64,000 nt of DNA from Parcubacteria group bacterium LiPW_15 (GTDB lineage Bacteria; Patescibacteriota; Minisyncoccia; UBA6257; 2-01-FULL-56-20). The DNA lies in NCBI GenBank assembly GCA_007375645.1, contig VMER01000003.1, positions 10,008 through 74,007 of the forward strand, written 5' to 3'. The translations under genes and the position numbers were made by a program. The stretch's first letter is position 1; every line of letters starts with the position of its first letter. Under the pieces are notes generated by a model, which saw nothing but the letters and a program-made list of their open reading frames with translations, was not told where the DNA came from and did not search any database. Positions 22,043-22,164 of this stretch are shown here, piece after piece.

Positions 22043-22164
22043 CGGGTAGGAATCGAACAGCGGAGGGGGTCGGGGAACCGCGCTCGGTTCCCCGTGGAGG
22101 AGATTATTCAGAACCGTGGGTTCTGAAAAGCGAGTGTCAGCGAGCGCGTGAGATTCCCTACCCG
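22043..22164. repeat. copy 1 of a ~120-nt structured repeat element (candidate small RNA or tRNA-end-mimicking mini element)
   Basis: Terminal inverted stem CGGGTAGGGAATC/GATTCCCTACCCG; internal hairpins GGGGAACCG-CGCT-CGGTTCCCC and CAGAACC-GTG-GGTTCTG; ~85% identical in the core to the copy at 45954..46066, with compensatory changes. Confidence 0.5.

What the first reader, a model, noticed from the sequence alone, without database searches (positions are those of the whole stretch)
22043..22164. Two-copy ~120-nt structured element with compensatory base changes (copy 1), insulated by bidirectional terminators
The element at 22043..22164 and its relative at 45954..46066 share an ~85-nt core (...AGGAATCGAACAGCG-A-GGGGTCGGG-AACCGCGCTCGGTT-CCCGTG...ATTATTCA-AACCG-GGGTT-TGAAAAGCGA...). 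Where they differ, the changes are compensatory within predicted helices: hairpin A is GGGGAACCG/CGGTTCCCC in copy 1 and GGGAAACCG/CGGTTTCCC in copy 2; hairpin B is CAGAACC/GGTTCTG vs CAAAACC/GGTTTTG; the terminal stem is GGGTAGGGAATC/GATTCCCTACCC vs GCGAGGAA/TTCCTCGC. Covariation in three separate helices argues for a conserved secondary structure, either as RNA or as a DNA cruciform, rather than a random repeat. Both copies sit between pairs of bidirectional hairpin terminators. The strand of any transcript is unresolved.
Basis: seen in the sequence. Interest (0 to 1): 0.75.

Follow-up and report, generated by a model that had tools for sequence, protein, structure and literature searches.

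The report
tRNA-linked structured mobile element family
The two look-alike 120-base elements belong to an uncatalogued family of folded non-coding modules that sit just behind tRNA genes in tiny "candidate phyla radiation" bacteria, carry arms copied from that tRNA, and behave like a protein-less mobile element.

Summary
The two copies share an 87-88% identical core, and their differences keep three helices paired. They are not a private two-copy repeat: scans found 19 copies in Paceibacteria/Parcubacteria, Saccharibacteria and Colwellbacteria assemblies. All share a four-helix fold (93% of pair cells paired; 18 of 32 pairs changed on both sides; 0 of 500 shuffles as good). No Rfam 15 family matches.

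Each element lies 44-98 nt downstream of a same-strand tRNA gene, past its terminator. The 3' arm is a direct copy of that tRNA's 3' end, starting in the T-loop. The 5' arm is an inverted copy of the T-loop and T-stem. Copy 2 belongs to tRNA-Arg(CCT) at 45831-45905. Copy 1 belongs to a tRNA-Asn about 2.2 kb left of the window, cut off by a ~24-kb serine-recombinase island. So the "covarying" terminal stem reflects two different tRNAs.

The family is gained, lost, swapped and stacked: element-free and stub alleles, subtype replacement, tandem copies, and one fresh 62-nt duplication. Best reading is a non-autonomous, tRNA-targeting duplicative cassette with a folded core. The enzyme, and whether RNA or single-stranded DNA folds, are unknown.

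The parts
21973..22001 (+). Degenerate tRNA-Asn 3'-end remnant, the right junction of the ~24-kb island (GGTTCTAAGTTCCTGCACAGCTCGGAGCA). It marks where the island separated tRNA-Asn from its terminator and from copy 1.
   Evidence: Sequence. tRNA-Asn(GTT) ending ...GGTTCGATCCCTACCCGCGGAGCA lies in L022 13334-13406(-), equal to window -2256..-2184(+). The remnant shares GGTTC and CGGAGCA with it.
22001..22039 (.). T1 of copy 1: a bidirectional hairpin terminator (A-tract, ACCCC/GGGGT stem, T-tract). It is inferred to be the original terminator of tRNA-Asn.
   Evidence: An upstream terminator at this position is seen at every tRNA-linked family member.
22043..22058 (+). 5' arm of copy 1 (CGGGTAGGAATCGAAC): an inverted copy of tRNA-Asn positions about 53-68 (T-loop, T-stem 3' strand, start of the acceptor strand).
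   Evidence: Its reverse complement GTTCGATTCCTACCCG compares with the tRNA's GTTCGATCCCTACCCG.
22059..22152 (+). Conserved core of copy 1, in order: junction 1/2 AGCGGAGGGGGTC; P2 22072-22093; junction 2/3 GTGGAGGAGATTA; P3 22107-22127; junction 3/4 AAGCGA; mini-hairpin P4 22134-22141; junction 4/1 GAGCGCGTGAG.
   Evidence: Covariance model score 143.1 bits. Pair counts. Fold.
22153..22171 (+). 3' arm of copy 1 (ATTCCCTACCCGCGGAGCC): a direct copy of the tRNA-Asn 3' end from the T-loop to the discriminator base.
   Evidence: It matches GATCCCTACCCGCGGAGC of tRNA-Asn with one extra T.
22176..22209 (.). T2 of copy 1: a second bidirectional terminator, 71% identical to T1.
45831..45905 (+). tRNA-Arg(CCT), the partner tRNA of copy 2.
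   Evidence: ARAGORN. Rfam tRNA model, 61.9 bits.
45906..45945 (.). T1 of copy 2: the terminator hairpin between tRNA-Arg and the element.
45956..45969 (+). 5' arm of copy 2 (GCGAGGAATCGAAC): an exact inverted copy of tRNA-Arg 45882-45895.
   Evidence: blastn 14/14 on the minus strand.
45970..46055 (+). Conserved core of copy 2: P2 45983-46004, P3 46018-46038, no P4 hairpin. It is the A-U subtype of P3 with GGAA in junction 2/3.
   Evidence: Covariance model score 134.5 bits. Alignments.
46056..46071 (+). 3' arm of copy 2 (TTCCTCGCGAGGGCAC): an exact 16-nt direct repeat of the tRNA-Arg 3' end (45888-45903).
   Evidence: blastn 16/16.
46072..46112 (+). T2 of copy 2: a 19-bp terminator hairpin. 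The stretch 3' arm + T2 is 78% identical to tRNA 3' end + T1.
46123..46137 (+). Stub of an older element (GGAGGAACCGAACAG): a 5'-arm remnant directly after T2. Its orthologue is intact in element-free relatives (L032: GCGAGGAATCGAACAGCGAAG).

Best explanation
I call the element K. Both window copies are members of an uncatalogued family found in candidate phyla radiation (CPR, Patescibacteria) bacteria. I read it as a small, protein-less, duplicative (mobile) cassette that lives at the 3' end of tRNA genes.

Shown:
- A conserved four-helix core. It runs P1, junction CGAACAGCGGAGGGGGUC, P2, junction GUGNNGGARAUUAUU, P3, junction AAAGCGA, a P4 of variable length, junction GAGCGCGUGAG, then back to P1.
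- Two arms taken from the neighbouring tRNA. The 5' arm is an inverted copy starting at G53 of the T-arm. The 3' arm is a direct copy from the T-loop to the tRNA 3' end; in the youngest copy it also runs through the trailer and terminator.
- The order is always tRNA, terminator, 5' arm, core, 3' arm.
- Copy 2 is the tRNA-Arg(CCT) member. Copy 1 is the tRNA-Asn(GTT) member, later separated from its tRNA by a ~24-kb serine-recombinase island.
- The family is gained, lost, replaced and stacked at tRNA loci.

Inferred:
- The propagating unit is probably [tRNA 3' part + terminator + 5' arm + core]. It would enter at the T-loop, so the tRNA is rebuilt from the cassette's own copy and the old 3' end is pushed downstream. 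This is the logic of tRNA-integrating islands.
- As a single strand, the 5' arm pairs with the tRNA-type 3' segment. That forms a duplex (P1) reproducing the T-arm of the target gene, with the core as a structured cap.
- Some enzyme supplied in trans would recognise this fold. It is unknown, and no gene for it lies nearby.
- Whether the folded strand is RNA (read-through from the tRNA promoter, since K has no promoter of its own) or single-stranded DNA is unresolved.
For: Family and structure:
- 7 loci from the metagenome scan and 7 from the genome scan, plus incidental copies: a covariance-model search finds 19 full or partial copies, and a shorter 3' fragment in L027 turned up separately.
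- P2 is swapped wholesale in L012, L010-Ile, L024 and L026.

tRNA link:
- A same-strand tRNA lies upstream in nearly all loci. The isoacceptors include Arg-GCG, Arg-CCT, Met, Gly-CCC, Cys, Val, Ile, Leu, Tyr, Ala and Asn.
- The arms match that tRNA. The gap from tRNA end to core is 44-98 nt.

DNA-level duplication rather than mimicry of the mature tRNA:
- Identity runs past the tRNA end into the trailer in L011 (8 nt) and L001.
- In L024 it runs through the whole terminator, 60 of 62 nt identical.

Turnover:
- The window's tRNA-Arg locus has element-free alleles that keep only a 5'-arm stub, in the same gene order (L031, L032-35).
- L026 has the other core subtype at the Arg-type locus.
- L001 has two divergent elements in tandem.
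- L004 has an extra tRNA-Gly 3' remnant.
- The tRNA-Cys of L018, 89% identical to that of L008, lacks K.
- Contigs of relatives break at or in K.

Cross-genome similarity: copy 1 is 97% identical to the copy in a different assembly (L008) but only 87% to copy 2 in its own genome.

No promoter lies between the terminator and K. The promoters of the downstream genes lie after K.

The P1 helix is kept by pairing. In L004 the 5' arm pairs with the 3' arm through an A-U compensatory change and three G-U pairs, which the tRNA copy would not allow (and the sequences).
Against: - No integrase, transposase or reverse transcriptase lies next to any copy; the neighbours are housekeeping genes. No larger, autonomous relative was found in viral contigs or phage records.
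- The junction in the youngest copy is out of register with the T-loop by two bases (GAGATT|CTCCCC versus TTCGA|CTCCCC). That fits microhomology or template switching better than conservative site-specific recombination.
- Which of the two duplicated segments is imported could not be decided. The terminator comparison was inconclusive.
- The junction strands are conserved to a degree more typical of a functional RNA than of a selfish repeat.
- Ascertainment bias: 14 copies were found with patterns that demand near-consensus blocks, so the apparent conservation and the cross-genome similarity are partly by construction.
- The strand is not settled. G-U versus A-C counts are 13:12 over the whole structure. 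Only the interior of P2 leans to the + strand: about five G-U against no A-C, counted by eye from the sequences, not by a tool.
Confidence: 0.5

Rival explanations
1. Host non-coding RNA tied to its tRNA. K is transcribed by read-through past the leaky tRNA terminator. P1 plus the single-stranded 3' tail imitates the stacked acceptor and T-stem 'minihelix' of the neighbouring tRNA. The tRNA machinery (RNase P, 3' trimming, CCA addition, perhaps a synthetase or EF-Tu) then processes or binds it. The conserved junctions would do the real job: protein or ribosome binding, or regulating maturation of the partner tRNA by competing for its T-arm.
For: - The helices covary and the junction strands are invariant.
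- Extra hairpins appear only at two fixed sites.
- K has the same orientation as the tRNA in every case and no promoter of its own.
- P1 is kept by G-U and compensatory pairs in L004.
- K is present after tRNA-Gly(CCC) next to the PCMT (protein repair methyltransferase) gene in two genomes whose PCMT proteins are only ~50% identical.
- The core stays near consensus even where the 3' arm has decayed (L003).
Against: - It is dispensable and unstable: element-free or stub alleles in close relatives, subtype replacement, tandem stacking, and absence after most tRNAs.
- Arm identity extends into trailer and terminator sequence that is not part of a mature tRNA.
- In most copies P1 covers only the T-stem and a few acceptor bases, not a full minihelix.
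- The near-consensus cores are partly an artefact of how the copies were found.
Confidence: 0.22
2. An RNA-level self-propagating element, ribozyme-like or intron-like. The 5' arm would act as a guide that pairs with the T-arm of a precursor tRNA. The core would catalyse, or recruit, cleavage and joining in the T-loop, producing core + tRNA 3' fragment + terminator. A DNA copy would then be fixed by a host reverse transcriptase or by recombination. Equivalently, the long read-through transcript is a tRNA with a ~200-nt insert in its T-loop that carries a spare 3' exon and a terminator.
For: - The guide-like layout matches that of group I intron guide sequences: the outer part of the 5' arm pairs with the downstream 'exon' and the inner CGAAC pairs with the upstream GUUCG.
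- A G always precedes the tRNA-derived 3' segment.
- In the youngest copy the duplicated segment ends about where the tRNA transcript would end, at the T-tract of the terminator.
- The out-of-register junction would suit template jumping.
- The junctions are conserved to a ribozyme-like degree.
- No protein gene is attached.
Against: - No match to any ribozyme or intron family in Rfam, even at E <= 10.
- The core of about 100 nt is half the size of the smallest group I introns.
- There is no U-G pair at the would-be 5' splice site.
- In L011 the duplication stops 8 nt after the tRNA, before the terminator.
- Group II introns are reported absent from Patescibacteria (PMC13011429), and no reverse transcriptase gene was seen near any copy.
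- Nothing here tests catalysis.
Confidence: 0.15
3. Inert scars. The copies would be leftover attachment-site ends of larger integrated elements (islands or prophages) that were later deleted, or ordinary palindromic intergenic repeats with no selected fold.
For: - tRNA genes in these genomes are clearly hit by larger elements. One is the 24-kb serine-recombinase island at tRNA-Asn. Another is a recombinase plus rolling-circle replication protein island at tRNA-Leu in L018.
- The L032 locus holds nested tRNA-Arg fragments.
Against: - All 19 full or partial copies are 'solo', and no longer form was found.
- The island in the window has no K-like end.
- Whole-helix compensatory replacement and site-specific hairpin insertions show selection on the fold.
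- The core is conserved across Saccharibacteria, Paceibacteria and Colwellbacteria.
Confidence: 0.08
4. A cis-regulatory leader (riboswitch, attenuator or T-box-like tRNA sensor) for the gene downstream.
For: - The downstream genes are on the same strand in all loci.
- Part of P2 (GGGGAACCGCG) resembles the T-box motif GGUACCGCG.
Against: - The downstream genes are functionally unrelated: MurD-like, dehydrogenase, membrane proteins, restriction-modification genes.
- In the window the promoters of the downstream genes lie after K and after its terminator (22255-22284 and 46155-46183).
- The T-box-like stretch is not conserved, because P2 is replaced in four members.
- There is no Rfam T-box hit.
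Confidence: 0.03

Closest known systems
tRNA-gene-integrating genomic islands and prophages (attachment sites overlapping the tRNA 3' end, T-loop sublocation)
   Same: - A direct repeat of the tRNA 3' end that starts in the T-loop and runs to, or past, the discriminator base.
- The tRNA stays intact.
- Successive elements stack at the same tRNA, and remnants are left behind.
- The same genomes carry real islands at tRNA genes.
   Different: - The unit is only about 190-260 nt.
- It carries no integrase or any other gene.
- It has a conserved four-helix folded core.
- It adds an inverted copy of the T-arm.
- It is found at 10 or more different tRNA species with nearly the same core.
- The junction of the youngest copy is out of register.
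Folded single-stranded recombination sites: integron attC sites and the CTX phage attP(+) hairpin
   Same: - An imperfect palindrome whose stem recreates a duplex like the target.
- Structure is conserved more than sequence in parts of it.
- The inner arm ends read ATCGAAC ... GTGAGAT, which is 6 of 7 matches to each of the attC boxes RYYYAAC and GTTRRRY.
- A variable terminal structure.
- It could exploit single-stranded DNA entry.
   Different: - No integron integrase or cassette open reading frames nearby.
- The 'variable' part is here a conserved three-hairpin junction with invariant strands.
- The target is a tRNA T-loop.
- The attC resemblance is recalled from memory and was not scored with an attC model.
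Miniature inverted-repeat elements, REP elements and REPINs (short non-coding palindromic repeats)
   Same: Short, non-coding, multi-copy and intergenic; hairpin-forming; they break assemblies and leave partial copies.
   Different: - The outer arms are not a fixed transposase-binding repeat. They change with the neighbouring tRNA.
- There is no short target-site duplication. Instead 16-62 nt of the tRNA 3' end, with or without the terminator, is duplicated.
- The interior shows covariation and conserved junctions.
Group IIC introns (insertion just after intrinsic terminators) and group I intron guide sequences
   Same: - Position a few bases after a terminator hairpin.
- A 5' segment complementary to sequences on both sides of the junction.
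- A G before the downstream segment.
   Different: - Far too small.
- No intron domains and no Rfam hit.
- No reverse transcriptase.
- No U-G wobble at the junction.
TnpB/IscB omega-RNAs (a structured scaffold plus a guide equal to the flanking DNA)
   Same: A scaffold of about 100-150 nt followed at its 3' end by 16-20 nt identical to a genomic target (the tRNA 3' end). The conserved T-loop lies just 5' of it, like a target-adjacent motif.
   Different: No nuclease gene anywhere nearby. The 'guide' is pre-paired with the 5' arm. No Rfam omega-RNA or HEARO match.

Membership tests
Any Rfam 15 family (4227 models, including ribozymes, introns, T-box, tRNA-like RNAs, LOOT, HEARO) | A covariance-model match to the element | tested here: not met
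   No family overlaps either copy at the gathering threshold. Even at E <= 10 on short stretches, the only hits are terminator hairpins matched by microRNA or small-RNA models well below threshold. Five related loci gave nothing either.
tRNA-integrating island / attachment-site pair | A direct repeat of the tRNA 3' end bounding the inserted DNA | tested here: met
   16/16 at copy 2. 18-22 nt in L001, L010 and L011, and 62 nt in L024.
tRNA-integrating island / attachment-site pair | An integrase (tyrosine or serine recombinase) encoded inside the element | tested here: not met
   Only about 150-230 nt lie between the repeats, with no open reading frame. Flanking genes are housekeeping. The window's serine recombinase (6387-8024) belongs to a separate island.
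tRNA-integrating island / attachment-site pair | A conservative, in-register junction inside the shared identity block | tested here: inconclusive
   Most copies are ambiguous, because GAGATT|CC resembles TCGATT|CC. The youngest copy, L024, is 2 nt out of register.
Integron attC site | R''/R' boxes (RYYYAAC / GTTRRRY) at the ends of an imperfect palindrome | tested here: inconclusive
   ATCGAAC and GTGAGAT (GTTCGAC in L008b) each match 6 of 7 positions. The consensus was recalled from memory; no attC model was available.
Integron attC site | Lies in a cassette array next to an integron integrase | tested here: not met
   No cassette arrays or integrase in any of about 20 loci.
Miniature inverted-repeat element | Family-wide conserved terminal inverted repeats and a short fixed-length target-site duplication | tested here: not met
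   The outer arms differ in every copy and follow the neighbouring tRNA. The duplications are 16-62 nt of tRNA sequence.
Group I intron | Catalytic core (P3-P9), U-G pair at the 5' splice site, length of 200 nt or more | tested here: not met
   No Intron_gpI hit. The core is about 100 nt. The base before the junction pairs by Watson-Crick.
Group IIC intron | Domains V/VI and usually a reverse-transcriptase open reading frame; insertion after terminators | tested here: not met
   Only the position after a terminator is shared. There is no domain V-like hairpin and no Rfam hit.
T-box riboswitch | Stem I with a specifier, a conserved T-box antiterminator, and an aminoacyl-tRNA-related gene downstream | tested here: not met
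   No Rfam hit. The T-box-like stretch in P2 is not conserved. The downstream genes are unrelated and have their own promoters after K.
TnpB/IscB omega-RNA | An adjacent TnpB or IscB nuclease gene, with the guide immediately outside a transposon end | tested here: not met
   No such gene in any locus. No Rfam match.
Structured RNA transcribed from the + strand | An excess of G-U over A-C in the helices, and a transcript | tested here: inconclusive
   13 G-U versus 12 A-C overall. The interior of P2 has about five G-U and no A-C, counted by eye from the sequences. Expression cannot be tested with these tools.

The most novel reading that the evidence does not exclude
K is a protein-free, nucleic-acid-guided mobile element. 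Its conserved core would be a new catalytic or recombinase-recruiting fold. Its 5' arm would guide it to the T-arm of a tRNA (as RNA) or of a tRNA gene (as single-stranded DNA, for example after natural transformation). It would insert in the T-loop while supplying a spare tRNA 3' end and terminator. In effect this is a harmless 'T-loop intron or cassette with a backup exon', which could explain how it colonised a dozen tRNA species in genomes of only about 1 Mb.
Probability: 0.2. Interest if true: 0.95.

Novelty: new variant of a known kind. Interest (0 to 1): 0.75.

Why it matters
CPR bacteria have very small genomes with little room for selfish DNA. Even so, this module sits behind many of their tRNA genes, and parts of its sequence are better conserved than the tRNAs themselves.

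If it is a mobile cassette, it shows a new and very economical way to parasitise tRNA genes. It has no gene of its own, it repairs the target as it enters, and it uses a fold that copies the target. It would also help explain why CPR assemblies break at tRNA loci, and why those loci hold nested tRNA fragments.

If instead the core is a functional or catalytic RNA, it is a new, widespread RNA class. It could be tested directly by in vitro transcription, by metatranscriptomics, and by genetics in cultivable Saccharibacteria.

In either case the covariance model built here gives annotators a handle on a feature that no current database names.

Tried and rejected
- Rfam at gathering threshold and at E <= 10 on both copies and on five related loci: nothing matched the element.
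- Viral contigs: the two-block pattern gave 0 hits. The P3 pattern gave 3 hits that are chance matches inside coding sequence.
- Phage records by blastn: no match.
- tRNA, tmRNA or tRNA-like gene on the minus strand: ARAGORN finds none. The minus strand carries only the T-loop-to-acceptor fragment.
- 'Four-way covariation' between hairpins A and B, seen in the window pair: rejected, because the family mixes the two states.
- A mini open reading frame after the AGGAG in junction 2/3 (AUU AUU CAG AAC CGU GGG UUC UGA): rejected. There is no start codon, and L005 has a 13-nt insertion.
- A fixed 'ruler' distance from the tRNA, as in Tn7-like or CRISPR-associated transposons: rejected. The gaps are 44-98 nt and follow the terminator length.
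- Strand assignment by counting G-U against A-C: inconclusive.
- Deciding which terminator (T1 or T2) is ancestral by comparison with element-free relatives: inconclusive.
- A link to the large serine recombinases: rejected. The island's junction lies at the acceptor end, not the T-loop, and its ends are not K-like.
- Literature searches found no description. The Patescibacteria tRNA group I intron paper (PMC13011429) concerns anticodon-loop introns.
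Full report
**1. The observation**

Both elements are present as described. blastn aligns 86 nt at 88.4% identity and finds no third copy in the window. A covariance-model search later confirmed that there are only two.

The terminal stem is also real, but the 5' arm of copy 1 is CGGGTAGGAATC, one G shorter than quoted, which gives a one-base bulge. 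Each copy folds better than its shuffles on either strand.

**2. It is a family**

No Rfam 15 model matches either copy, even at E <= 10. Two pattern scans recovered related sequences:
- 7 metagenome loci, from Hainich groundwater and other sites.
- 7 loci from genome assemblies named Paceibacteria, Saccharibacteria (five) and Colwellbacteria.

A covariance model (R1) then found further, more divergent copies in the same loci and in loci fetched for other reasons. A model search finds 19 full or partial copies; a shorter 3' fragment in L027 was found separately. Names attached to identical proteins identify the window as Parcubacteria group bacterium LiPW_15, a relative of Liptonbacteria.

**3. 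Architecture**

On the + strand the order is:
- P1, formed by the 5' arm and the 3' arm
- junction CGAACAGCGGAGGGGGUC
- P2, 8-10 bp
- junction GUGNNGGARAUUAUU, with an optional extra hairpin in L004, L005 and L012
- P3, UUCAGAACC-GNG-GGUUCUGAA
- junction AAAGCGA
- P4, from 2 to about 20 bp
- junction GAGCGCGUGAG
- the 3' arm

On the 19-sequence alignment, 93.1% of pair cells are standard pairs, against 84.4 +/- 0.6 when partners are shuffled and 32-57% when they are slid by 1-3 columns. 18 of 32 pairs show changes on both sides, against 7.0 +/- 1.8 in shuffles; 0 of 500 shuffles reach this.

P2 is replaced by unrelated pairing sequences in L012 (GUCCGACC/GGUCGGAC), L010-Ile, L024 and L026.

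One P3 pair is dimorphic: G-C in 10 sequences, A-U in 8. It is linked to G or A in the GGAR of the preceding junction. Both subtypes occur in the window and in L010.

The inner part of P1 (GGAAUC-GA-AC / GU-GA-GAUUCC) contains a conserved tandem G-A mismatch. In the variant L008b the 3' side reads GUUCGACUCC, an intact T-loop. So the usual GUGAGAUUCC is a T-loop derivative.

**4.

In nearly every locus a tRNA gene lies upstream on the same strand, followed by a terminator hairpin and then the element. The gap from the tRNA end to the core is 44-98 nt.

The 3' arm is a direct copy of that tRNA from the T-loop (position 58/59) to the discriminator base. It is 16/16 at copy 2 and 18-22 nt in L001, L010 and L011. 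The 5' arm is an inverted copy that always starts at G53 and extends 4-25 nt into the T-stem and acceptor strand.

Copy 2 belongs to tRNA-Arg(CCT) at 45831-45905.

Copy 1 looked like an orphan, but its arms match a tRNA-Asn(GTT) about 2.2 kb left of the window start (L022 13334-13406). Between that tRNA and copy 1 lies a ~24-kb island. It carries two large serine recombinases (window 6387-8024; L022 11625-13346), a DNA methyltransferase and a LOOT RNA. Its right junction is the degenerate tRNA 3' remnant at 21973-22001.

The 'covarying' terminal stem therefore reflects two different tRNAs.

**5. Duplication happens at the DNA level, and the family turns over**

- Identity between the tRNA region and the 3' arm runs on into non-tRNA trailer in L011 and L001.
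- In L024 it runs through the whole terminator. The 62-nt segment from position 59 to the end of the T-tract occurs twice with 2 differences, and the 5' arm is an exact 12-nt complement of that tRNA-Ala T-arm. This is a recent event.
- In older copies the two terminators are 71-78% identical, with their hairpins preserved.
- The window's own tRNA-Arg locus exists without K in relatives that share its gene order: tRNA-Ala(-), a small open reading frame, tRNA-Arg, an ORF100/104 with a conserved promoter, tRNA-Ser, HtrA. L032-35 and L031 keep only a 5'-arm stub (GCGAGGAATCGAACAGCGAAG in L032) directly before the flank.
- The window keeps the same stub, degenerate, after T2 (46123-46137).
- L026 has the other core subtype joined to the Arg-type 3' arm.
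- L001 has two divergent elements in tandem.
- L004 has an extra tRNA-Gly remnant.
- L018 has a tRNA-Cys 89% identical to that of L008 but no K.
- Several relatives' contigs end in or next to K, as expected of a repeat.
- Copy 1 is 97% identical to a copy in another assembly but only 87% to copy 2.

**6. What it is not**

- It is not a leader for the downstream gene. Promoter-like sites for those genes lie after K (22255-22284; 46155-46183, conserved in L024, L031 and L032). None lies between the terminator and K. The downstream genes are unrelated to one another.
- It is not the end of the serine-recombinase islands.
- It is not an intron, T-box or omega-RNA by any feature that could be tested here.
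- It was not found in viral or phage collections.

**7. How it most likely works**

Shown: a selected fold; tRNA-derived arms; DNA-level duplication of the tRNA 3' end; gain, loss, replacement and stacking; no gene of its own.

Inferred: the repeating unit (tRNA 3' part, terminator, 5' arm, core) propagates by entering at the T-loop of a tRNA gene. The gene is rebuilt from the cassette's copy and the old 3' end moves downstream, as with tRNA-integrating islands. In the single-stranded form the 5' arm pairs with the tRNA-type segment. This gives a duplex identical to the target's T-arm, capped by the conserved core. It is an arrangement reminiscent of folded attC or CTX attP sites, and would be recognised by an enzyme supplied in trans.

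Three things limit confidence:
- The enzyme is unknown.
- The youngest junction is 2 nt out of register, which hints at template switching.
- I could not decide which duplicated half is the imported one, nor whether RNA or single-stranded DNA is the active form. G-U versus A-C is 13:12 overall; only the interior of P2 leans to the + strand (plus a count by eye from the sequences).

In L004 the 5' arm pairs with the 3' arm through an A-U compensatory change and three G-U pairs, which the tRNA copy would not allow. So P1 itself is maintained.

**8. Caveat on conservation**

Fourteen copies were found with patterns that require the conserved blocks. Their near-identity, and the impression that the core is better conserved than the tRNAs (tRNA-Gly 81% and PCMT protein ~50% between L004 and L014, against a core of 83-91%), are therefore partly ascertainment. 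The six incidental copies score 35-104 bits and carry most of the covariation.

**9. Verdict**

The finding is real and more interesting than stated. It is a widespread, uncatalogued, structured module linked to tRNA 3' ends in CPR bacteria, and its behaviour is that of a mobile element. I file it as a new variant of tRNA-targeting integrative or miniature elements (confidence about 0.5). A host tRNA-linked RNA (0.22) and an RNA-level ribozyme-like or guide-like mobile element (0.15) remain live rivals. Literature searches found no description of it.

Noticed in passing
window ~1-22000 (continuing to about -2200 left of the window; L022): A ~24-kb genomic island inserted at the 3' end of tRNA-Asn(GTT). 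It carries two large serine recombinases (window 6387-8024(-); the second is in L022 11625-13346 and overlaps the tRNA 3' end), an N6/N4 DNA methyltransferase (10635-12203) followed by very large open reading frames (12208-19187), a SpoVG-like gene (9574-9882) and an HTH gene. Its junction is at the acceptor end of the tRNA, not at the T-loop.
   Followed up: partly
window 1228-1345 (-): A full-length LOOT RNA (Rfam RF03000, 90.9 bits against a gathering score of 46.4) lies inside the island, next to a 1265-aa open reading frame with no Pfam match (1438-5235).
   Followed up: no
L032 2540-2830: The tRNA-Arg(CCT) locus of a relative holds nested tRNA fragments. Two 5' fragments (GCCCTCGTAGTTC and GCCCTCGTAGTTCAATGGATA) lie upstream, and a 3' two-thirds fragment lies downstream, of a complete variant tRNA-Arg. 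That variant sits in a ~150-nt insert bounded by the inverted repeats CCCGCCCGACTCGCCTGAC / GAGTCAGGCGGGCGGG. This looks like a second kind of mini-element that replaces the tRNA it interrupts.
   Followed up: partly
L018/L019 660-3220: Another island directly abuts tRNA-Leu(TAA). It carries a large serine recombinase and a rolling-circle replication initiator (REP_ORF2-G2P), so it may be an integrated element with a single-stranded DNA stage. The HIT gene that lies next to copy 2 in the window sits inside this island here.
   Followed up: no
alignment A4 columns 100/112 and junction 2/3 (window 22103, 22111, 22123; 46013, 46021, 46034): A three-way linkage. The P3 pair G-C goes with GGAG in the preceding junction, and A-U goes with GGAA. 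An A-G variant at the same pair recurs in L001 and L027. This could mean two ancient subtypes, or a base triple or alternative pairing.
   Followed up: partly
window 46733-46750: Immediately after tRNA-Ser(CGA) the sequence GCTTTGAACGGAAC contains TTTGAAC, the complement of that tRNA's own T-loop (GTTCAAA). It may be a 5'-arm-like stub or a chance match.
   Followed up: no
window 46155-46183 and L024, L031, L032: A promoter-like site (TTGCCA-17-CATAAT with an upstream TG) in front of the fast-evolving small cysteine-rich ORF104 is conserved across relatives. The protein itself is only 58% identical between relatives whose HtrA is 90% identical.
   Followed up: partly
window 23517-24107 (+): An open reading frame with an aminoglycoside-2''-adenylyltransferase-like domain (Pfam PF10706, E 5.6e-10), two genes downstream of copy 1.
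   Followed up: no
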